NCBI GenBank assembly: GCA_040768105.1
Contig: JAXGNE010000013.1
Coordinates: 7,490 to 71,489, forward strand
Length of the DNA stretch: 64,000 nt
Origin: Anaerolineaceae bacterium
GTDB taxonomy: Bacteria > Chloroflexota > Anaerolineae > Anaerolineales > Anaerolineaceae
Direction of reading: 5' to 3'
Shown here: piece by piece, positions 3-47,905 of the stretch
Position numbering within the stretch: the stretch's first letter is position 1
Layout: each line of letters starts with the position of its first letter
Translations under genes and position numbers: made by a program
The notes under the pieces: generated by a model
What the model was told of the DNA's origin: nothing
The model's input: the letters and a program-made list of their open reading frames with translations, nothing else
The model's database searches: none

Positions 3-548
3 TTACTTAAAATTGCCCGGGAGGCAATTATTTCTGTTGCAGATAACAAACCACCCGCCCAAATTAACGTAGGTGAACTTAGTCCAGCGCTGCAAGCGTA
101 TGCTGCTACATTTGTGACCCTGACAATAGAAGGTGCTTTACGCGGCTGCATTGGCACTCTTAAAGCCTATCAACCCCTTGCCCTAGATGTACAAGAGCAT
201 GCCATTGCTGCAGCTTTTCAAGATTATCGTTTTCCCCAAGTAACAAAATCAGAACTTCCCAAACTGCAAATTGAAATTTCTCGATTAACCCTACCTCACG
301 CCTTGATCTATGAAAATTATCAGGAATTAATCAGCAAACTGAGGCCTGATGTTGATGGGGTAGTTATTTCAGACGGCCACCGCAGTGCGACTTTCCTCCC
401 CCAAGTATGGGAAAAACTCCCCGATCCAGCAGATTTTCTGAGTCAACTGTGCCTCAAGATGGGTGCAGCACCTACCTTATGGCAGAAGCGACACTTGGAA
501 GTAAAAACCTACCAGGTCGAGGAGTTTCAAGAAGAACTGGAAAATTAA
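3..548 (+). CDS. AMMECR1 domain protein, 5'-partial (runs off window start)
   Basis: Frame is open from nt 3 with no stop. TFVTLTIEGALRGCIG and ATFLPQVWE motifs are typical of the AMMECR1 family. Confidence 0.8.
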   Translation, partial: LLKIAREAIISVADNKPPAQINVGELSPALQAYAATFVTLTIEGALRGCIGTLKAYQPLALDVQEHAIAAAFQDYRFPQVTKSELPKLQIEISRLTLPHALIYENYQELISKLRPDVDGVVISDGHRSATFLPQVWEKLPDPADFLSQLCLKMGAAPTLWQKRHLEVKTYQVEEFQEELEN

Positions 549-3041: not shown

Positions 3042-3398
3042 TTAAATCTCCTCACAATGTTCAATTTCAACCGTAAATAAATTAGCACCACCAATTGTCA
3101 CTGGTGTTGGCATCGGCATCGGTAGTGGTGCGTTCTCAATTGGGACCGCAATAAATGAGACTCTCTTTCGACAGGTTTTATTTAGAAGCTCCTTGGCTTT
3201 TTCCTGCTCTGGATGAGGCACTTTAATAAGTAAGGTTGCATTGCGTCTCCCCAAAAAACCACCTACACTCGGCAATCGGGTAACTGAAAATTGTGCATTT
3301 TCTAAAACTTCACTCGCAATATCACTATCTTGCGCTTGTACAACCGCAATCATCAATACACAATTCTCTTTTATGGGATTATCGTCCTGTTGCTCCAT
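3042..3398 (-). CDS. PII-like c-di-AMP receptor family protein, long paralog, copy B
   Basis: About 10 aa differences from copy A, and the start codon is displaced relative to copy A. Confidence 0.75.
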   Translation of the reverse strand: MEQQDDNPIKENCVLMIAVVQAQDSDIASEVLENAQFSVTRLPSVGGFLGRRNATLLIKVPHPEQEKAKELLNKTCRKRVSFIAVPIENAPLPMPMPTPVTIGGANLFTVEIEHCEEI

Positions 3399-41786: not shown

Positions 41787-42777
41787 ATGATGAAACATTT
41801 ACCTCAACTAAAAACTAAAGTGATTCCCATGCTTGGATTCCTAGTGTTGGCTTCAATGACCCTCTATTTACTCATCCAGACACTGATCCAGGCAGCATTA
41901 TGGCATTCATTCGGGGGAATCCTCTTAATCATCATCACACTTGGTGTTTTTATTGCGCTGTACTTTGAAGGCAAAAGAGTCTGGTTCAATGAACAAGACC
42001 TCATCAAATCTAAACGCCATTTCCGGGAATTTGTATCCGTAGTGGGTGGGGCTTTATTTACATACTACCTAGCGCATGACATCGGCGTTGGCATTGTGGT
42101 TGCTGCTAGCTTAGCCGGGGTTTTAGCCCATGTCTTCTTTGCCGATTTTGAAGCACCTTTCTTTGCCGGGGCTTTTGTTGGAATGAGTTCGACCGGACTA
42201 TTGTTCAACTATTCAGAATTAATCTTGGCAGCCGCAATTTCTGGTCTGACCTTTATCTTGGCTACGACTGTATTCCGCGGCTTTGGTGGAAAAATGGGAA
42301 CAGTAGCCTTGGTAGGCACCTTCTTGGCAGGCAGCAGCCTTATGCGCCAATTTGAATTACGGCCTTTACCAGCCTTTGATGTTATCATCCTAGTCTTTAT
42401 TTTTTCTGTTTTGACTACGCCATTAACACATTACCTGAACATTAAACGCGACCATGGTCCAGTGATGGCTTCTGCTGTGATTGGTTTAATGGCAGGCATA
42501 TTGTTACCGCGTTTTTTTTGCTGAAAACGGCAGCTTTTACGCGATTGTTGTGATTTGCGCTTCTTTCATTGGCATGACTGTGAAACCAGTTTGCAGTAAC
42601 TTCTGGCAAATTTCCCTTTCAGGGGTAATCATGGCAATCGTATTTGTCTATGCCACACCACTATTGAATGGAGCTGGCGGAAAACTAGGTGCAATTGCGT
42701 TTATTGCTGTCTTATCTATTTGCGGATTCCGCAAACTAGCTGAGGTTATAATTTCTGAGAGCAGCAGACCTAGTTAA
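41787..42777 (+). pseudogene. Polytopic membrane protein gene split by a +1 frameshift at a T8 run (ORFs 41787-42524 and 42550-42777)
   Basis: Removing one T from 42512-42519 reads ...LPRFFAENGSFYAIVVICASFIGMTV..., joining both ORFs. The motif GGK(M/L)G(T/A)(V/I)A occurs in both halves. Confidence 0.65.
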
Positions 42778-42812
42778 CTGTTTCCCTTAGCCCGCTTAAA
42801 ACAAGCTATAAT

Positions 42813-43769
42813 ATGCTCCATATGCGAAAAATCTACCTGATCATTATTTTGATATGCCTGTTGATTGGGACACATAAGCCTGCCCAAGCCCAAGCAGGCA
42901 GCGCCTATGACTTAATTGCTGAAGTAAACGCATACAGGGCGGCTAATGGTTTAGATGAATACAGCATTGATAGCTTCTTGATGGAGTACGCGCAAAGCCA
43001 CGCAGAATATTGTGCATCCATAGGTTATGGCACGCATACGCACCAAGACGGCACTGTCCCCTTTGACTCAGGTATCCAGGAAAATGTAGCAAGCGGCACA
43101 AACATGTCTGTTTCCTTTACGATTTACACCATCTGGGCTGATCCCGTGCACTGGAAGCTGATTGCAGGCAACAGCGGTGGCAGGATTGGTGCAGGCGCTG
43201 CGTACAGCGGTGATTCAGTTTATTACACTCTGAATGTCATCCCCTCGGGCACGACAGTCAGCGAACCACCTGAAAACACAACGGTAGTCCTTGCTGCCGT
43301 GCAACCCCAGGTAACCCAGGAATATATCGGTGAGGTAATTACAAACACCCCTAATGCAAACGGCATTGTCGTTCATTTTGTAAAATACGGTGAGTCACTT
43401 TGGTCCATTGCCATTGCTTACGGCACAACTGGTGCACAAATTATGGAAAATTCTGGCTTCAGTCCCAGCATAACCAATGTATTTGAAGGACAGAAATTAA
43501 TCATTAAAACCGCATCTCCCCCGACTGCTACCGTGCAGCCCTCAAAAACGCCTGTTCCACCTACACCAACCATCACACCGCCGAGGCCTACCCGCACGCC
43601 AATGCCGACACGCACGCCTATGCCCACGCCAACCCCCACCCAACCCCCGCCAGTGCTTTACCGGGCGTTTGGTGACAGCCAAACCCTTGGCACTGCCCTA
43701 GTTGGTCTCAGTTTGACCGGGTTGATATTGGTCGTCACTTTTGGTTTTTTGCGGAAGCCTAAACCTTAA
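42813..43769 (+). CDS. Secreted CAP/SCP-like + LysM protein with Pro/Thr-rich linker and C-terminal TM anchor
   Basis: Signal peptide. AYRAANGLDEY...YAQSHAEY (CAP-like). LysM VKYGESLWSIAIAYG. PTPTITPPRPTRTPMPTRTPMPTPTPT linker. Confidence 0.6.
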   Translation: MLHMRKIYLIIILICLLIGTHKPAQAQAGSAYDLIAEVNAYRAANGLDEYSIDSFLMEYAQSHAEYCASIGYGTHTHQDGTVPFDSGIQENVASGTNMSVSFTIYTIWADPVHWKLIAGNSGGRIGAGAAYSGDSVYYTLNVIPSGTTVSEPPENTTVVLAAVQPQVTQEYIGEVITNTPNANGIVVHFVKYGESLWSIAIAYGTTGAQIMENSGFSPSITNVFEGQKLIIKTASPPTATVQPSKTPVPPTPTITPPRPTRTPMPTRTPMPTPTPTQPPPVLYRAFGDSQTLGTALVGLSLTGLILVVTFGFLRKPKP

Positions 43770-43822
43770 TTTTTGGAAATCCAAACCTTGAAATAATTTT
43801 ATTAATTTGATCTTAAAAACCC

Positions 43823-43852
43823 TTGACAGCAAAAAAATAGTGGTGATAAAAT
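43823..43852 (+). promoter_or_regulatory. Near-consensus sigma70 promoter with extended -10
   Basis: TTGACA (43823-43828), an 18-nt spacer, then TGaTAAAAT (43844-43852). Confidence 0.65.
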
Positions 43853-43888
43853 AATGAAGTTAGGCCAATTCTACGAGAGGTAATTTTA

Positions 43889-43987
43889 ATGACAAGCACA
43901 ATCTACATCAAAATCAGCTTGCTTCGCAGCTCCGCCGTTTCTGGCGCCGCTCTGATTCAAGCATGGAATGTGCCTGTCCACAGTTAA
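43889..43987 (+). CDS. 32-codon leader uORF (MTSTIYIKISLLRSSAVSGAALIQAWNVPVHS)
   Basis: GAGAGG lies 8 nt upstream of the ATG. Below the ORF-track size cutoff. Followed by two terminators. Confidence 0.5.
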   Translation: MTSTIYIKISLLRSSAVSGAALIQAWNVPVHS

Positions 43988-44026
43988 CCTATACGCAACG
44001 ACTGTCCAGACCACGGGTACATTCCA
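43892..44026 (+). promoter_or_regulatory. Candidate transcription attenuator (mutually exclusive pairings 1:2, 2:3, 3:4)
   Basis: Segment 1 (43892-43905) pairs with segment 2 (43964-43977) at 12 of 14 positions. Segment 2 pairs with segment 3 (44013-44026) at 14 of 14 including 2 G-U. Segment 3 overlaps the left arm of terminator T1. Confidence 0.5.
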
Positions 44027-44042
44027 GTCCCGTGGTTTTTTT
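44010..44042 (+). terminator. Intrinsic terminator T1
   Basis: accacggg / cccgtggt 8-bp stem with an 11-nt loop, then a T-run to 44042. Confidence 0.8.
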
Positions 44043-44062
44043 ATTAATCACATTTTCTAGAC

Positions 44063-44095
44063 AAACCACGGGAAGAAGGCAACCCGTGGTTTTTT
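44063..44095 (+). terminator. Intrinsic terminator T2 (same stem core as T1)
   Basis: aaaccacggg / cccgtggttt stem with a 10-nt loop, then a T-run to 44095. Confidence 0.8.
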
Positions 44096-44144
44096 AGTCT
44101 GCCAGGGTACTTGTAGAAAAAAAAGCAAGATTAAGGAGAAAGAG

Positions 44145-45179
44145 ATGAAAAAAGAGGATTTATATCAATTGAAAACCCACCCAAGCTGGTGCTTGCGCCC
44201 ATTCACCCTGGCAGACGCCCCTGCCGTGGTCGAGATCATGCGCGCCAGCTCGCTAGCAAACCTAGGCTATGCTGATGTTGACCTTGAGGAAATGTTATCC
44301 GATTGGACTGCACCTGGTGTGGACCTACTAGAGACCGCCCGCGTCCTGGTGGACGAGCAAGGTCAGATCATTGGCTATTGCGATATCTGGGACTCGGAAG
44401 CCCCACATGTGACCAAGTGGTGCTGGGTTGATATTCACCCTGACCGCTGGGAAGATGCCGTTGCCCTGGAACTGCTGGGGTGGTCTGAGCAGGCTGCCCG
44501 TGCACGCATGCACCTGGCGCCTGATGGAGCACGTGTGATCCTGGGATACGGCTTAAACCACCGACAGGAGCGATCCCGCTGCATGCTGGAAGCAGCCAGT
44601 TTTGAGCTGGTGCGCCATTACTACCGCATGCAGATCGAACTGGACCAGCAGCCAGCACAGCCAGCTTTGAACGGCTTCGCAGTGCGCCCCATGCGCTACC
44701 CGGACGAGTTCCCCATGGCGGTCAATGCCATCCAGGAAGGCTTCCGCGACCATTGGGGGTACATTGAGCATGATGAGCAGGAGAACCTGGCGCACTGGCA
44801 GCACTATGTCGATAACAGCCTGTTTTTTGACCCCAGCCTGTGGTTCTTTGCCTTCACAGGTGAGCAATTGGCAGGGCTGTGCTTCTGCAAAGCTGGTATC
44901 AGCGAAGATCCTGAGTTGGGTTGGGTCAACCAACTGGCAGTACTGCGCTCCTACCGCCGACGGGGTCTGGGCAAAGCACTCCTGCAGCATGCCTTTTTTG
45001 AACTATATCAAAGGGGCAGGCGCAAGGTTGCGCTAGGCGTAGACGCCACCAGCCTGACAAACGCCACCCATTTATATGAAAGCGCCGGCATGCGAGTCGT
45101 CCGGCAGTATGATACCTACCATAAAGAATTGCGCCCAGGTAAGGACCTGAGCACACAAGAATTAGACAATACGGAGTAA
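44145..45179 (+). CDS. GNAT-family N-acetyltransferase, tandem-GNAT (MshD-like) architecture, GC-rich
   Basis: AAGGAG upstream. Q/R-x-x-G-x-G/A-type motif LRSYRRRGLGKALL. Homologous to the next gene (FRDHWGY, LGVD, LYES.G). Confidence 0.75.
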   Translation: MKKEDLYQLKTHPSWCLRPFTLADAPAVVEIMRASSLANLGYADVDLEEMLSDWTAPGVDLLETARVLVDEQGQIIGYCDIWDSEAPHVTKWCWVDIHPDRWEDAVALELLGWSEQAARARMHLAPDGARVILGYGLNHRQERSRCMLEAASFELVRHYYRMQIELDQQPAQPALNGFAVRPMRYPDEFPMAVNAIQEGFRDHWGYIEHDEQENLAHWQHYVDNSLFFDPSLWFFAFTGEQLAGLCFCKAGISEDPELGWVNQLAVLRSYRRRGLGKALLQHAFFELYQRGRRKVALGVDATSLTNATHLYESAGMRVVRQYDTYHKELRPGKDLSTQELDNTE

Positions 45180-45183
45180 GATC

Positions 45184-46212
45184 ATGTTTGTTCTACCGAT
45201 AACAAAAACAATAAATGTACAAAACAAACCAAACATTCCTGGGCTGACTTTCCGCCGCTTTGAAGGCGAGTCCGATTACCCAAAGATGATTGGCATAATT
45301 ACCGCCTGTAAAGATGTGGACCGTGAAGAACGCAGCGAAACTGTAGATGATTTGCGCAACCAGTATGCACACCTCCAAAATTGCGATCCATACACAGATA
45401 TGCTCTTTGCGGAGATTAATGACGAGCCTGTTGCTTATGCACGGGTTGGTTGGTTTGAGGAAAAAGACCCGGTCATTCGGGTTTATTACCATTTCTTTTT
45501 CCTAATACCTGAATGGCGCGGGCGAGGCATTGAAGAAGCCATAGCACGCTGGGCTGAAAAACGGCTTAAGAAGATAGCAGAAGCACATCCAAAAAATATC
45601 AAACGCGTTTTCTCAGTAGAATGCAGCGAGCATCAACAGGACAAGATAGCCCTGCTGGCAGGTTTAGGCTACAAACCCGAGCGTTACTTTGTCTCAATGT
45701 CTAGGCCACTCACAGACATACCCAAAGCAACTATGCCGGAGGGTATCGAAGTTCGGCCAGTCACGCCTGAGCAGCACGACCTGCTCTGGCAGGCAAGCAA
45801 TGAGGCATTTCGCGATCATTGGGGATATGCTGAGCCTTCTGATGAAGAATATACAGAATGGCGTAATTCACGTTGGTTCCAACCACAGCTCTGGCAGGTT
45901 GCCTGGGATGGCAATGAGGTTGTTGGCCAAGTTCAAAACTTTATTGACACTCTTGAAAACCAGGAATACAAGCGTCAGCGCGGTTACACTGAAGGCATCA
46001 GCGTACGCCGGCCTTGGCGAGGTCGCGGGATTGCCAAAGCCCTGATTGTGCGCTCAATGCATATGCATAAGGCATTGGGCATGACTGAAGTGGCACTAGG
46101 TGTGGATACCAATAACCCGAATGGTGCGCTTAAGCTCTATGAAAGCCTCGGCTATAAAGCTTACAAAACCTTGATTGTCTATCGCAAACCGATGCCGGGA
46201 CAGGAAAAATAG
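45184..46212 (+). CDS. GNAT-family N-acetyltransferase, tandem-GNAT architecture (paralog of the previous gene)
   Basis: EWRGRGIEEAI and RRPWRGRGIAKALI acetyl-CoA motifs. Start is 4 nt after the previous stop. Confidence 0.75.
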   Translation: MFVLPITKTINVQNKPNIPGLTFRRFEGESDYPKMIGIITACKDVDREERSETVDDLRNQYAHLQNCDPYTDMLFAEINDEPVAYARVGWFEEKDPVIRVYYHFFFLIPEWRGRGIEEAIARWAEKRLKKIAEAHPKNIKRVFSVECSEHQQDKIALLAGLGYKPERYFVSMSRPLTDIPKATMPEGIEVRPVTPEQHDLLWQASNEAFRDHWGYAEPSDEEYTEWRNSRWFQPQLWQVAWDGNEVVGQVQNFIDTLENQEYKRQRGYTEGISVRRPWRGRGIAKALIVRSMHMHKALGMTEVALGVDTNNPNGALKLYESLGYKAYKTLIVYRKPMPGQEK

Positions 46213-46214
46213 TT

Positions 46215-46250
46215 AAAAAGGCAGCAGGTATAAAACCCTGCTGCCTTTTT
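46215..46250 (+). terminator. Strong intrinsic terminator between GNAT2 and the ABC-F gene
   Basis: aaaaaggcagcagg-tataaaac-cctgctgccttttt, a perfect 14-bp stem. It starts 3 nt after the GNAT2 stop and ends 24 nt before the ABC-F ATG. Confidence 0.85.
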
Positions 46251-46273: not shown

Positions 46274-47905
46274 ATGCTGCAAGTGAGTAACCTGAATAAA
46301 TCCTATGGCGTCCAAACCATCCTAAAAGACATCAGCTTTAATATACAAGGCAATGACCGGGTGGGACTGGTTGGTGCAAATGGCTGTGGGAAGAGTACCC
46401 TGCTGGATATCCTGACTGGCAAATTGCCAGCCGATAGCGGCATCGTTGCACTTGAAAAAGGTAAAATATTGGGATATCTTCCACAAAAAACATACCTTGA
46501 AGGCGAAATAAGCATACAAAATTACTTGGAAAATTGCATACCGGGCTTAATAGAAGCACAGCAGATAATTGAGGAATCAACAGAGCGTTTAAAAATAGGT
46601 GATCACGAAGCGCTTGCAGCTTATGGCCAAGCGGCCAACCAATATGAAGCCCTAGGTGGTTATCAATTTGAGTCTAAAGCGCAAGCCATTTTGGCTGGTC
46701 TTGGCCTTCCGTACCTGGGCTTAGACAGGCCTATGAGCCAGCTCAGCGGCGGGGAAGCAATGCGGGTACACCTGGCAGGCTTGCTCTTGGCTGAACCACA
46801 CATTTTATTATTAGATGAACCAACAAACCACCTGGATATTGAAGCCTTAGAGTGGTTGGAAGGTTTTTTGAAGACATACCAGGGGGCAGTTCTGCTTGTT
46901 TCCCATGACCGGGTATTCCTCGATGCAATTGTTGACCGGGTACTTGAAATCGACGAGGATACGCACACCCTGCGTGAGTATGCAGGTAACTACAGCGGCT
47001 ACGCCAGGCAAAAAGAACTGGAATTGCAAAAATTGGTGGCTGCCTGGCAGGATCAACGAGAGGAAATCAAACGACTGAGAACCGATGCCCAGCGCACAGC
47101 CGAACAAGCCCGCCATTCAGAATTAGCAACCAGGGACTCTACCTTACGCAGGTATGCAAAAAAAGTAGCCAAAAAAGCCAAAGCAAAAGAAAAAAGACTG
47201 GAACGCTACCTGGATTCTGATGAAAGAGTAGAAAAACCAGAAGAAAAATGGCGCCTGCGGGTCAATTTTGACGAAGGCGCACACCAAAGCCAGCTCGTCC
47301 TTGCCGCCAGGTCGCTTGGACATGCATACCAGTCTGGTTGGCTTTTCCAAGACTTAGATCTGAACATCCAGCAGGGTGATCGTATAGCGCTTATCGGCCC
47401 GAATGGCTGCGGAAAATCGACCTTACTGAAGTGTTTATTGGGTGAAATACAGCCAAGCGCTGGCACGGTCCGCATAGGGAACAGCACCAAGATCGGGTAC
47501 ATGCCGCAACAACAGGAAAATTTGCCCCCAGGGAAAACGCCCATTGAAATCATCCAAGCAATTGCCCCGATGAATCAGAGCGAAGTGCATCACTTCTTAC
47601 ATTATTTTTTATTTGAACAAGAGCAGGCACGCCTGCCAAATCATTGTCTCAGCTTTGGGCAGAGGGCACGCCTACTGCTGGCAAAGCTGGTTGCCAGTGG
47701 CGCCAATTGCTTGGTTTTGGATGAACCAGTAAACCACTTGGATATCCCTTCACGAGAGCAATTTGAACGAGCACTAGAAATGTTTAAGGGGACTGTCGTA
47801 GTGGTGGCACATGACCGCGCCTTTATTCAACGCACAGCGGATATCATTTGGAAGCTAAATGACGGCGCGTTATCTATTTCATACTTGAAGAATATTTTGC
47901 AGTGA
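46274..47905 (+). CDS. ABC-F family ATPase (two ABC domains, no TM domain)
   Basis: Walker A GANGCGKST and GPNGCGKST, LSGGE signature, and a charged Lys/Arg/Glu-rich interdomain linker. Alternative TTG start at 46253. Confidence 0.85.
   Translation: MLQVSNLNKSYGVQTILKDISFNIQGNDRVGLVGANGCGKSTLLDILTGKLPADSGIVALEKGKILGYLPQKTYLEGEISIQNYLENCIPGLIEAQQIIEESTERLKIGDHEALAAYGQAANQYEALGGYQFESKAQAILAGLGLPYLGLDRPMSQLSGGEAMRVHLAGLLLAEPHILLLDEPTNHLDIEALEWLEGFLKTYQGAVLLVSHDRVFLDAIVDRVLEIDEDTHTLREYAGNYSGYARQKELELQKLVAAWQDQREEIKRLRTDAQRTAEQARHSELATRDSTLRRYAKKVAKKAKAKEKRLERYLDSDERVEKPEEKWRLRVNFDEGAHQSQLVLAARSLGHAYQSGWLFQDLDLNIQQGDRIALIGPNGCGKSTLLKCLLGEIQPSAGTVRIGNSTKIGYMPQQQENLPPGKTPIEIIQAIAPMNQSEVHHFLHYFLFEQEQARLPNHCLSFGQRARLLLAKLVASGANCLVLDEPVNHLDIPSREQFERALEMFKGTVVVVAHDRAFIQRTADIIWKLNDGALSISYLKNILQ

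What the first reader, a model, noticed from the sequence alone, without database searches (positions are those of the whole stretch)
43823..44105. Self-contained leader: promoter, 32-codon uORF, and twin terminators with a trp-like 1:2 / 2:3 / 3:4 pairing scheme plus a terminator relay
Layout:
- A near-consensus promoter (TTGACA-18-TGaTAAAAT) drives a short ORF preceded by GAGAGG (43889-43987).
- Two intrinsic terminators follow, with the same stem core CCACGGG/CCCGTGG (T1 44010-44042, T2 44063-44095).
- Only about 50 nt separate T2 from the next ATG at 44145, and I see no promoter there. The downstream GNAT genes therefore seem to depend on read-through.

Hand base-pairing:
- uORF codons 2-6 (43892-43905) pair with the uORF 3' end (43964-43977) at 12 of 14 positions.
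- That same 3' segment pairs at 14 of 14 positions (2 G-U) with 44013-44026, which is the 3' part of the T1 left arm plus its loop.
- If T1 is disrupted in this way, its free right arm (44029-44035) is perfectly complementary to the T2 left arm (44066-44072). One upstream decision could then disable both terminators.

Interpretation: a ribosome reaching the stop codon would cover segment 2 and favour termination. A ribosome stalled early would free segment 2 to act as an antiterminator. The uORF has no run of any single amino acid, so this does not look like a classical amino-acid attenuator.
Basis: partly seen in the sequence, partly recalled or inferred. Interest (0 to 1): 0.75.

Follow-up and report, generated by a model that had tools for sequence, protein, structure and literature searches.

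The report
Ribosome-sensing leader with twin coupled terminators
This is a short regulatory leader in front of acetyltransferase, exporter and ABC-F genes that most likely reads how well a tiny upstream ORF is being translated and switches two linked transcription terminators accordingly; it belongs to a large, apparently undescribed leader family in Chloroflexota (Anaerolineae).

Summary
The leader has a near-consensus promoter, a 32-codon uORF with a ribosome-binding site, two intrinsic terminators sharing one stem, and the 1:2, 2:3 and T1-3'/T2-5' complementarities.

It is one member of a family. I found 114 distinct copies in Anaerolineae-type genomes and metagenomes, and none matches an Rfam family.

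- **uORF:** 98 of 108 untruncated copies keep it (about 12 expected by chance), but the conserved element AGTGCGCCT is read in all three frames. Translation therefore seems to matter, not the peptide.
- **Antiterminator:** the uORF 3' end covaries with the T1 loop (GGAG/CTCC, GCAG/CTGC, GAAG/CTTC, and GGAA/TTCC in the window clade).
- **Terminators:** T1 and T2 stems change together (AC/AC 33, GT/GT 21, mixed 0), which fits the proposed relay.
- **Folding:** in the nascent RNA the antiterminator forms unless a ribosome sits at codon 23 or later.
- **Downstream genes:** acetyltransferases, ABC and MFS exporters and, in the window clade, a ribosome-protection-like ABC-F.

Best reading: a ribosome-mediated transcription attenuator that senses translation stress, working like whiB7, vmlR and bmrBCD. 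No experiment supports this yet. I rate it a new variant of a known kind.

The parts
43823..43852 (+). Sigma-70-type promoter: TTGACA, 18-nt spacer, extended -10 TGATAAAAT. The predicted transcription start is about 43859 (inferred).
   Evidence: scores it 11/12 with TG. It is identical in L011 and L015. TTGACN-16..19-TANNNT is present in 91 of 94 family members, against 0.7 in shuffles.
43875..43880 (+). Shine-Dalgarno sequence GAGAGG of the uORF, 8 nt before the ATG.
   Evidence: Read directly. A start codon led by an SD sequence is found in 98 of 108 untruncated leaders.
43889..43987 (+). Regulatory uORF of 32 codons plus TAA (MTSTIYIKISLLRSSAVSGAALIQAWNVPVHS).
   Evidence: It was called as a gene on the public contigs. 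The ORF is conserved in length and position across 100 leaders while the peptide is not; the conserved element is read in frames 0, 1 and 2 in 76, 17 and 7 leaders.
43892..43905 (+). Segment 1 (anti-antiterminator strand), which pairs with segment 2.
   Evidence: Pairs at 12 of 14 positions by direct reading. Duplex energy -15.7 kcal/mol. Across the family, own versus swapped partners give -18.0 versus -15.6 kcal/mol, with 0 of 5000 permutations as low.
43917..43962 (+). Hairpin inside the uORF, a possible pause or timing hairpin.
   Evidence: Seen in the minimum-energy fold. Two compensatory pair changes between the window and L015 were read by hand (GCUUG/CAAGC versus ACAUG/CAUGU). The family-wide folding z-score for this region is -1.4, which is weak support.
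43964..43977 (+). Segment 2, TGGAATGTGCCTGT: the switch strand. It is complementary to both segment 1 and segment 3, and it is the window-clade version of the family's nearly invariant CGGAGTGCGCCTGT.
   Evidence: Third codon positions are conserved as strongly as first and second positions.
43980..44005 (+). Small spacer stem (43980-43985 with 44000-44005) at the tip of the antiterminator hairpin. It overlaps the uORF stop codon.
   Evidence: A spacer stem is present in 95% of leaders, and the stop codon lies in or next to it in 86 of 99.
44013..44026 (+). Segment 3: the distal part of the T1 left arm plus the T1 loop. It pairs with segment 2 to form the antiterminator.
   Evidence: Pairs at 14 of 14 positions with 2 G-U (I4). 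Energy -23.2 kcal/mol. In the family, 83% of cells pair against 33-60% in slid controls. Own versus swapped partners give -20.9 versus -17.5 kcal/mol, 0 of 5000. Tetramer covariation table.
44008..44042 (+). Terminator T1: stem ACCACGGG/CCCGTGGT, 11-nt loop, U run.
   Evidence: Hairpin energy -17.2 kcal/mol. In the family, 98.7% of cells pair and 115 cells carry compensatory double changes.
44029..44072 (+). Relay hairpin: the T1 right arm plus the start of its U run (44029-44038) pairs with the T2 left arm (44063-44072). No U run follows it.
   Evidence: I2. Energy -19.6 kcal/mol, more stable than T2. It is part of the minimum-energy fold when the antiterminator is imposed. In the family, 92 of 102 leaders pair these arms. 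Own versus swapped partners give -14.9 versus -11.6 kcal/mol, 0 of 5000. Stem core types are concordant: AC/AC 33, GT/GT 21, none discordant.
44063..44095 (+). Terminator T2: stem AAACCACGGG/CCCGUGGUUU, 10-nt loop, U run.
   Evidence: Energy -14.7 kcal/mol. A second terminator is present in 102 of 113 leaders.
44145..46212 (+). Regulated genes: two tandem-domain GNAT acetyltransferases (44145-45179 and 45184-46212).
   Evidence: Pfam assignments. No promoter-like site lies between T2 and the ATG. The leader stays with these genes when the upstream context changes.
46274..47905 (+). ABC-F ATPase of the ribosome-protection-like class. It is possibly co-regulated, but a terminator-like hairpin at 46215-46250 separates it from the GNAT genes.
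   Evidence: NCBIfam NF000355 scores 466.6 bits against a cut-off of 380. Hairpin evidence.

Best explanation
The region is a ribosome-mediated transcription attenuator that reports how fast the 32-codon uORF is being translated.

**Proposed sequence of events**
1. Transcription starts about 7 nt after the -10 box.
2. A ribosome loads on the uORF while RNA polymerase continues.
3. If translation keeps pace, the ribosome occupies codons 23-32 or the stop codon when the T1 left arm emerges. It then covers segment 2 and melts the small spacer stem.
4. In that case T1 folds and transcription ends. Any polymerase that leaks through meets T2, which also folds because the T1 right arm is locked inside T1.
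5. If the ribosome is delayed anywhere in roughly codons 1-21, segment 2 is free. Delay could come from a translation inhibitor, a shortage of charged tRNA or a shortage of ribosomes.
6. Free segment 2 pairs with the distal T1 left arm and loop in a 13-14 bp antiterminator.
7. The orphaned T1 right arm then pairs with the T2 left arm as soon as it is made. Both terminators are disabled and polymerase enters the acetyltransferase genes.
8. The 1:2 helix can sequester segment 2 when no ribosome has loaded. In most relatives it also sequesters the uORF's ribosome-binding site.

**Shown here**
- The sequence elements themselves.
- Their conservation in 114 leaders.
- RNA-level conservation of segment 2.
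- Covariation of the 2:3, 1:2, T1 and T1/T2 pairings.
- The energetics with ribosome masks.

**Inferred**
- That the uORF is translated.
- That T1 and T2 terminate.
- The polarity of the switch.
- The nature of the natural signal.
For: **The uORF is under selection as an ORF**
- 98 of 108 untruncated leaders keep an SD-led ORF (median 31 codons) that ends 8-30 nt after the start of the conserved element. Shuffles give 11.8 +/- 3.1.
- The conserved element is read in all three frames (76, 17 and 7 leaders).
- Its third codon positions are 90-100% conserved.
- Together these indicate that the act of translation and the RNA sequence matter, not the peptide.

**Antiterminator (2:3)**
- The window duplex is -23.2 kcal/mol.
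- In the family alignment 83.4% of cells pair, against 33-60% when partners are slid.
- Own versus swapped partners give -20.9 versus -17.5 kcal/mol, with 0 of 5000 permutations as low.
- Segment-2 tetramers match the T1 loop: GGAG/CTCC 39 of 58, GCAG/CTGC 17 of 23, GAAG/CTTC 4 of 6, GGAA/TTCC 4 of 5. Off-diagonal matches are almost absent.

**Terminators and relay**
- T1 pairs in 98.7% of cells with 115 double-change cells.
- 102 of 113 leaders have a T2. T1 and T2 core types are always concordant.
- The relay arms pair in 92 of 102 leaders.
- With the antiterminator imposed, the window's minimum-energy fold contains the relay rather than T2.

**Geometry**
- In nascent RNA ending at 44028 the antiterminator has probability 0.90 for P-site codons 1-21, 0.66 at codon 22, 0.23 at codon 23 and about 0 from codon 24.
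- T1 begins a median of 21 nt after the stop codon, out of reach of a terminating ribosome.

**Context**
- The promoter is conserved in 91 of 94 leaders.
- No promoter-like site lies downstream of T2.
- The leader travels with the operon when the upstream context changes.
- Downstream genes are GNAT acetyltransferases, ABC-2 and TMD-NBD exporters, MFS transporters and an ABC-F. In the sample not selected through GNAT, 33 of 37 leaders have such a gene within 5 kb.
- Demonstrated uORF attenuators control the same gene classes: the whiB7 regulon of tap, eis, erm and hflX (PMC10274678), vmlR (PMC9226507) and bmrBCD (PMC4191407).
Against: - No transcript or translation data exist for any family member.
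- At equilibrium the complete leader prefers 1:2 plus T1 (-55.1 kcal/mol) over the antiterminator state (-49.0). T1 stays 1-7 kcal/mol more favourable under most ribosome masks. The model therefore depends on co-transcriptional kinetics that I cannot compute.
- Without any ribosome the nascent RNA also favours the antiterminator. The outcome when the uORF is untranslated is therefore ambiguous.
- On the sequence-only MAFFT alignment the 2:3 covariation is modest (83.4% paired against 82.0% in column shuffles; 42 against 25.6 double-change cells). This is because segment 2 is nearly invariant.
- The own-versus-swapped tests do not correct for shared ancestry.
- T1/T2 concordance could also come from duplication plus gene conversion.
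- The inducing signal is inferred only from the kinds of genes downstream.
Confidence: 0.72

Rival explanations
1. The leader is a translation-independent attenuator. A small molecule or an RNA-binding protein recognises the nearly invariant CGGAGTGCGCCTG element and chooses between antiterminator and terminator. The ORF is incidental.
For: Segment 2 is far more conserved than base pairing alone requires. The RNA is highly structured (z = -5.4). Without a ribosome the nascent RNA already chooses the antiterminator, so a factor that blocks segment 2 could work in the same way as a ribosome.
Against: An SD-led ORF of constant length, ending just after segment 2, is kept in 98 of 108 leaders against about 12 by chance. 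It survives frame changes. No aptamer-like conserved multi-helix core is seen outside the switch strands: the consensus fold of the full-length alignment finds only T1. No Rfam family matches. No conserved regulator gene accompanies the leader.
Confidence: 0.1
2. The conserved C-terminal peptide ..LP-x-RSAP-V.. (WNVPV in the window) is a specific arrest peptide. The nascent chain senses a ligand or drug and stalls the ribosome on segment 2.
For: 76 of 100 uORFs read the element as RSAP. Pro-containing R-A-P-type arrest motifs are known from other bacteria (from my own knowledge, not checked here).
Against: 24 of 100 uORFs read the same nucleotides in other frames, as ..ECAC* or ..VRL... Third codon positions are 90-100% conserved. 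The window clade itself has NVPV, with the changed bases compensated in the T1 loop. A stall at this position would cover segment 2 and favour termination, which is an odd polarity for resistance-type genes.
Confidence: 0.06
3. The leader is a classical amino-acid attenuator that senses one particular charged tRNA.
For: It has the same four-segment logic as trp, his and leu leaders. The whiB7 uORF also responds to amino-acid starvation (PMC10274678).
Against: No run or enrichment of any one codon family appears in the window uORF or across the family. The downstream genes are acetyltransferases and exporters, not biosynthetic genes or tRNA synthetases.
Confidence: 0.05
4. This is an independent small gene or small RNA ended by a redundant pair of terminators. 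The downstream genes have their own unrecognised promoter, and the complementarities are by-products of duplicated terminators.
For: The unit has its own strong promoter and two good terminators. A terminated product of about 180-240 nt would be stable and structured.
Against: The peptide is not conserved. The unit is always co-oriented with, and lies within about 0-100 nt of, the next gene. No promoter-like site follows T2. A by-product model does not explain the covariation between segment 2 and the T1 loop.
Confidence: 0.05

Closest known systems
Mycobacterial/actinobacterial whiB7 5' leader (uORF-mediated transcription attenuation)
   Same: A uORF is followed by a Rho-independent terminator. 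Efficient uORF translation gives termination and translation stress gives an antiterminator and read-through. The uORF peptide is variable in sequence. The output genes are of the same kinds: an MFS efflux pump (tap), a GNAT acetyltransferase (eis) and ribosome-protection or rescue factors (PMC10274678).
   Different: whiB7 controls a transcription factor that then activates the regulon in trans. Here the leader sits directly in front of each operon. There is no alanine enrichment comparable to the 25-40% reported for whiB7 (Ala is 11.5% here). This leader has two coupled terminators. No sequence relationship was detected, and the phylum is different.
Bacillus subtilis vmlR leader (ABC-F resistance factor)
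   Same: It has an anti-antiterminator, an antiterminator and an intrinsic terminator. Ribosome stalling on a uORF prevents the anti-antiterminator. An additional hairpin around the downstream gene's ribosome-binding site is relieved in read-through transcripts (PMC9226507). The window has a comparable 12-bp helix around the GNAT start.
   Different: The vmlR uORF has 3 codons and senses drugs that stall initiating ribosomes. Here the uORF has about 31 codons and the permissive stall window spans about 20 codons. vmlR has a single terminator.
Bacillus subtilis bmrBCD (leader peptide BmrB controlling a multidrug ABC exporter)
   Same: It is a ribosome-mediated transcriptional attenuator induced by antibiotics that target protein synthesis. 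A small ORF harbours alternative stem-loops. The downstream genes encode a heterodimeric TMD-NBD ABC exporter (PMC4191407). Exporter pairs of that type follow this leader in L131 and L175.
   Different: In bmrB the terminator lies inside the leader coding region. No twin terminator or relay is described, and the sequences are unrelated.
Classical trp/his/leu-type attenuators of Proteobacteria
   Same: Four-segment logic with mutually exclusive 1:2, 2:3 and 3:4 helices, and a ribosome whose position decides the outcome.
   Different: This leader has no regulatory codon run and no biosynthetic operon downstream. Its stop codon lies after segment 2 rather than between segments 1 and 2. It has a second terminator linked to the first.
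ermK leader of Bacillus licheniformis (Kwak, Choi and Weisblum 1991; listed as reference 15 in PMC4335068; details from my own memory, the paper is not held)
   Same: An antibiotic-responsive transcription attenuator in which two successive truncated transcripts, and so two termination points, were reported in the uninduced state.
   Different: As far as I recall, it has a short erythromycin-specific leader peptide and no identical-stem relay between the terminators. I could not check this here.

Membership tests
Ribosome-mediated transcription attenuators (general class) | A short ORF with its own ribosome-binding site in the 5' leader, conserved as an ORF. | tested here: met
   Window uORF at 43889-43987 with GAGAGG. 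The ORF is present in 98 of 108 leaders against 11.8 +/- 3.1 in shuffles.
Ribosome-mediated transcription attenuators (general class) | An intrinsic terminator between the leader ORF and the regulated gene. | tested here: met
   T1 and T2 are G+C-rich stems followed by U runs. In the family, T1 pairs in 98.7% of cells with compensatory changes. Actual termination was not measured.
Ribosome-mediated transcription attenuators (general class) | A mutually exclusive antiterminator whose upstream strand lies within reach of the translating ribosome. | tested here: met
   The 2:3 duplex is -23.2 kcal/mol. Covariation is shown.
Ribosome-mediated transcription attenuators (general class) | Read-through changes when uORF translation is perturbed. 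| not testable with these tools
   This needs reporter fusions, Term-seq or a coupled in vitro transcription-translation system.
Classical amino-acid biosynthetic attenuators (trp, his, leu, thr, ilv, phe) | Tandem or clustered codons for the regulatory amino acid in the leader peptide. | tested here: not met
   The window peptide has no run. The family composition shows no dominant residue.
Classical amino-acid biosynthetic attenuators (trp, his, leu, thr, ilv, phe) | Downstream genes belong to the biosynthesis of that amino acid. | tested here: not met
   The downstream genes are GNAT, ABC, MFS, HAD and ABC-F genes.
Antibiotic-inducible resistance leaders (erm, cat, vmlR, msrD, bmrBCD, whiB7 type) | The downstream genes are resistance determinants: target protection, drug modification or efflux. 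| tested here: inconclusive
   The window ABC-F passes the NCBIfam 'ribosomal protection-like ABC-F' cut-off (466.6 bits against 380). The GNAT genes hit aminoglycoside acetyltransferase models only far below their cut-offs. The exporters are generic ABC-2, MFS and TMD-NBD types. The gene classes fit, but no substrate is known.
Antibiotic-inducible resistance leaders (erm, cat, vmlR, msrD, bmrBCD, whiB7 type) | A drug-dependent stalling motif in the leader peptide. | tested here: inconclusive
   An [RK]x[RK] motif occurs in 36 of 88 uORFs against 12.4 +/- 2.9 expected. The motifs cluster 10-13 codons before segment 2. This +X+ pattern is known as a macrolide arrest motif (abstract of PMC12583479). 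The window uORF has only a single Arg at that place.
Antibiotic-inducible resistance leaders (erm, cat, vmlR, msrD, bmrBCD, whiB7 type) | Induction by sub-inhibitory translation inhibitors. | not testable with these tools
   This requires culture or in vitro experiments.
Any curated RNA family (Rfam 15, including uup, Chloroflexi-1 and known leaders) | A covariance-model match at the family's gathering score. | tested here: not met
   No match in the whole window. Nothing credible at E up to 10 in 43600-44300. No match in 8 related loci.

The most novel reading that the evidence does not exclude
The two terminators form one device rather than a redundant pair. Their four arms are kept mutually complementary, so a single upstream decision (segment 2 free or covered) propagates down a chain: 2:3, then T1-3':T2-5'. 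In the off state leakage is multiplied across the two terminators, so leak is squared. In the on state both are switched off together. This would give a much larger dynamic range than a single attenuator. The device is conserved across a whole bacterial class, where it acts as a cis-encoded general sensor of translation stress for acetyltransferase and efflux genes. In effect it would be a cis version of the actinobacterial whiB7 response. In many members the sensor may be tuned by a mid-uORF +X+ motif to drugs that bind the ribosomal exit tunnel.
Probability: 0.45. Interest if true: 0.75.

Novelty: new variant of a known kind. Interest (0 to 1): 0.62.

Why it matters
Anaerolineae and related Chloroflexota are abundant in sediments, digesters and wastewater, are hard to culture, and have almost no characterised gene regulation.

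- **A regulatory handle:** a single, easily recognised leader marks a set of acetyltransferase, exporter and ABC-F operons. That gives a ready-made map of what these organisms switch on when translation falters, and so a handle on their intrinsic resistance or toxin-defence genes.
- **A mechanistic twist:** the coupled twin terminator would be a compact way to gain dynamic range in attenuation, and it could be reused in synthetic biology.
- **An unusually clean argument:** the same RNA element is read in three frames by uORFs of constant length. This natural experiment shows by comparative data alone that the ribosome, not the peptide, is the signal carrier.

Tried and rejected
- **Rfam:** a search of the whole window at gathering thresholds, a permissive search of 43600-44300 and a search of 8 related loci found nothing usable. 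The three weak hits (SNORD123, psRNA14, MIR6445) are chance.
- **Simple terminator scan:** it missed T1 and T2 because their loops exceed 8 nt. This is not evidence against them.
- **Consensus folding:** RNAalifold on a MAFFT alignment of 86 full-length leaders recovered only T1. The 5' half is too variable in length and register for a sequence-only alignment. I therefore tested the 1:2 pairing, the mid-uORF hairpin and the relay with alignment-free duplex energies and partner swaps. I did not build a covariance model, because an alignment fitted to the structure would bias the counts.
- **Equilibrium folding of the complete leader:** it favours T1, and the full-length minimum-energy fold is a nested T1-5':T2-3' form. 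I do not treat that form as biological, because it needs both terminators to have been read through.
- **ABC-F mislabelling:** I first labelled every long ABC protein downstream as ABC-F. Inspecting the sequences and then counting Walker A motifs showed that most are TMD-NBD exporters. True ABC-F proteins follow the leader only in the window clade and in L116.
- **Metagenome scan:** half of the 120 pattern hits did not match the leader profile, and I left them out.
- **Other dead ends:** The ermK paper could not be read.
- **Minus strand:** the ORFs and promoter-like sites across the leader have no conserved partner and were dismissed.
- **No other copy:** there is no second copy of the leader in the window.
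Full report
**1. The observation**

- **Promoter.** TTGACA at 43823, an 18-nt spacer ending in TG, and TAAAAT ending at 43852. It matches 11 of 12 consensus positions and is the only promoter-like site on the + strand in 42500-45500.
- **uORF.** GAGAGG (43875-43880) lies 8 nt before an ATG that opens a 32-codon ORF, 43889-43987.
- **Terminators.** CCACGGG..CCCGTGG occurs exactly twice in the 64-kb window, at 44011-44035 and 44066-44089, against 0.01 expected. A T run follows each copy.
- **Fold.** The 248-nt leader folds much better than shuffled versions (z = -5.4).
- **Known families.** Rfam has no match in the window.

**2. Surroundings**

- Upstream on the + strand is a secreted CAP/LysM protein gene.
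- Downstream on the + strand are two GNAT acetyltransferase genes of about 340 residues each (44145-45179 and 45184-46212).
- After them comes an ABC-F ATPase gene (46274-47905). Its product passes NCBI's cut-off for 'ribosomal protection-like ABC-F' (466.6 bits against 380).
- The GNAT proteins' homologues come mostly from Anaerolineae-type Chloroflexota.

**3. The leader is a family**

- Contigs encoding GNAT homologues of 78% and 66-67% identity carry the same leader. The 66-67% relatives have a different upstream context because a minus-strand gene is inserted, so the promoter and leader travel with the operon.
- A scan of one genome per species for GNAT relatives returned 80 loci. A profile built from 20 leaders found the leader in 67 of the 97 loci held at that point, always co-oriented and upstream.
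- A DNA-pattern scan of metagenomes that did not rely on the GNAT gene gave 120 loci, and 60 of them match the profile.
- After removing duplicates there are 114 distinct leaders.
- Eight of their loci also have no Rfam match.
- Literature searches combining Chloroflexi, Chloroflexota or Anaerolineae with attenuation terms found no description of such a leader in this group. A further search on ribosome-mediated attenuation, acetyltransferases and uORFs returned only the known systems used as comparators below.

**4. Is the uORF real?**

- In 98 of 108 leaders with enough upstream sequence, a start codon preceded by a Shine-Dalgarno sequence opens an ORF (median 31 codons, interquartile range 28-32). 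It stops 8-30 nt after the first base of the conserved element AGTGCGCCT. After shuffling the upstream 137 nt only 11.8 +/- 3.1 leaders qualify.
- The conserved element is read in frame 0 (..RSAP..) in 76 leaders, in frame 1 (..ECAC-stop) in 17 and in frame 2 (..VRL..) in 7.
- Its third codon positions are 90-100% conserved.
- So an ORF of fixed length and end point is selected, and the nucleotide sequence of segment 2 is selected, but the peptide is not. This is what one expects if a ribosome's position is the signal.
- It argues against both a functional micropeptide and a sequence-specific arrest peptide.

**5. The antiterminator**

42 cells carry changes on both sides.
- Because segment 2 is almost invariant, the column-shuffle control is close to the observed value (82.0%).
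- I therefore added alignment-free tests. The duplex energy between each leader's segment 2 and its own T1 5' half averages -20.9 kcal/mol. Partners taken from other leaders give -17.5 (0 of 5000 permutations as low), and shuffled segment 2 gives -13.4.
- The clearest evidence is a contingency table of the segment-2 tetramer against the T1 loop:

| Segment-2 tetramer | Complementary loop tetramer | Leaders with match |
|---|---|---|
| GGAG | CTCC | 39 of 58 |
| GCAG | CTGC | 17 of 23 |
| GAAG | CTTC | 4 of 6 |
| GGAA (window clade) | TTCC | 4 of 5 |

- Mismatched combinations are almost absent.
- The window's own departures from the family consensus (GGAATGTGCC instead of GGAGTGCGCC) are compensated in its T1 loop (ACATTCC instead of GCACTCC).

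**6. Terminators and relay**

- T1 pairs in 98.7% of cells, with 115 double-change cells. The main change is a swap between CCACGG/CCGTGG and CCGTGG/CCACGG.
- 102 of 113 leaders have a second terminator a median of 27 nt downstream.
- The core variant of T2 always agrees with that of T1 (AC/AC 33, GT/GT 21, no AC/GT or GT/AC). The T1 right arm pairs better with its own T2 left arm than with others (-14.9 against -11.6 kcal/mol, 0 of 5000).
- In 92 of 102 leaders the minimum-energy fold of the stretch from the T1 right arm to the T2 left arm pairs those two arms.
- In the window the relay hairpin is -19.6 kcal/mol, against -14.7 for T2 and -17.2 for T1.
- When the antiterminator is imposed, the best structure contains the relay rather than T2 (-70.7 against -69.9 kcal/mol). 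The relay arms also emerge from the polymerase before the T2 right arm does.
- Duplication plus gene conversion could also keep the stems alike, so I give the relay roughly even odds.
- A constitutive T2 would make little regulatory sense in 90% of the members.

**7. Geometry and energetics in the window**

- With the RNA truncated at 44028, before the T1 right arm is out, the antiterminator has a mean pair probability of 0.90 with no ribosome or with the P site at codons 1-21. It is 0.66 at codon 22, 0.23 at codon 23 and about 0 from codon 24 to the stop.
- T1 starts a median of 21 nt after the stop codon across the family, so a terminating ribosome masks segment 2 but not T1.
- At equilibrium the complete leader prefers 1:2 plus T1 (-55.1 against -49.0 kcal/mol). 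As in other attenuators, the decision must therefore be kinetic.
- The 1:2 helix is supported across the family (-18.0 against -15.6 kcal/mol for swapped partners, 0 of 5000). Segment 1 usually spans -15 to +7 around the start codon, so it would also hide the uORF's ribosome-binding site. In the window it lies at codons 2-6.
- Because the antiterminator is the stronger helix, 1:2 is probably a kinetic trap for untranslated transcripts. I cannot tell what happens without translation.

**8. What is controlled, and what is the signal?**

- I clustered the proteins encoded downstream of all leaders and assigned the clusters with Pfam.
- The classes found are tandem-domain GNATs, small Acetyltransf_3-type GNATs, ABC ATPase plus ABC-2 permease pairs, MFS transporters, HAD hydrolases, TMD-NBD exporter pairs and a few ABC-F proteins.
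- In the sample not selected through the GNAT gene, 33 of 37 leaders with at least 1 kb of downstream sequence have a GNAT, ABC or MFS gene within 5 kb.
- These are the gene classes placed under uORF attenuators that sense translation stress elsewhere:
  - the whiB7 leader, whose regulon includes tap, eis, erm and hflX (PMC10274678);
  - vmlR (PMC9226507);
  - bmrBCD (PMC4191407).
- The uORFs show no run of one amino acid.
- They do show a positional excess of basic residues 10-13 codons before segment 2. [RK]x[RK] occurs in 36 of 88 uORFs against 12.4 +/- 2.9 expected. This pattern is known as a macrolide arrest motif (abstract of PMC12583479).
- A ribosome stalled at that position would leave segment 2 free. 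The window uORF has only one Arg at this place.
- I therefore favour a general translation-stress signal (ribosome-targeting compounds, possibly also tRNA charging), with moderate confidence.

**9. Verdict**

- Two corrections apply: the role of the 1:2 helix, and the reach of the leader over the ABC-F gene. A strong terminator-like hairpin at 46215-46250 lies between the second GNAT gene and the ABC-F gene.
- The mechanism belongs to a well-known class. What appears to be new is the family itself, its spread across a poorly studied class of bacteria, the three-frame evidence and the coupled twin terminator.
- Nothing here is experimental.

Noticed in passing
window 44097-44108 and 44205-44216: A perfect 12-bp inverted repeat (GTCTGCCAGGGT / ACCCTGGCAGAC) starts right after the T2 U run and ends inside the first GNAT gene. 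It encloses that gene's ribosome-binding site and ATG. The local fold is -33.1 kcal/mol. It is mostly kept in L011 (10 of 11 pairs) but absent in L015. It could gate GNAT translation in the way SL-4 does in the vmlR leader.
   Followed up: partly
window 46215-46250: A strong hairpin lies between the second GNAT gene and the ABC-F gene: an A run, then GGCAGCAGG / CCTGCTGCC, then a T run (-28.1 kcal/mol, z = -5.7). It looks like a bidirectional intrinsic terminator. L011 keeps it with a compensatory change (TGCAGCAGG / CCTGCTGCA). L015 has a different hairpin without a U run. It may set the ratio of GNAT to ABC-F expression, or uncouple the ABC-F gene from the leader.
   Followed up: partly
L020 3032-3448, L024 3014-3445, L025, L032, L040 (between leader and GNAT): In Brevefilum-type loci two conserved small ORFs lie between the leader and the first GNAT gene. 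One starts MYNL(T/I)ITIW.. and ends ..SPPD. The other starts MYHFTFIDEAS.. and ends ..VRIFISKN. I ran no family search on them, so their function is unknown.
   Followed up: no
uORFs of the family, 10-13 codons before segment 2; window codon 13 (Arg, 43925-43927): Basic residues are concentrated at one place in the uORFs, and [RK]x[RK] (RLR, RIR, RFK and others) is three times more frequent than expected (36 of 88 against 12.4). This matches the +X+ macrolide arrest motif. It could instead reflect RNA constraints from the mid-uORF hairpin.
   Followed up: partly
L015 2960-2975 and L012 2960-2975: A third CCACGGG (CCACAGG in L012) half-site without a partner arm follows T2 (TTTTTACCACGGGCAGC). 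The window has GCCAGGG at the same place. It might extend the pairing chain beyond T2 towards the first gene's ribosome-binding site.
   Followed up: no
L019 about 3165-3190, L021, L022, L023, L033 (just after the -10 box): Brevefilum-type leaders carry an extra short hairpin at the very 5' end of the transcript (for example AACGCCTGAATTCAGGCG). It is missing in the window clade. In those leaders the distance from the -10 box to the uORF is about 69 nt instead of 36.
   Followed up: no
L131, L175, L029, L036, L045 downstream of the leader: Pairs of TMD-NBD ABC exporter genes, the BmrCD/LmrCD type of architecture, follow the leader directly or after a GNAT gene. This is the gene type controlled by the bmrB leader in B. 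subtilis.
   Followed up: partly
window 43540-43650 (end of the upstream CAP/LysM gene): The upstream secreted protein has a long Pro/Thr-rich repeat linker (PTPTITPPRPTRTPMPTRTPMPTPTPTQPPP) before a C-terminal hydrophobic anchor. It has no apparent connection to the leader.
   Followed up: no
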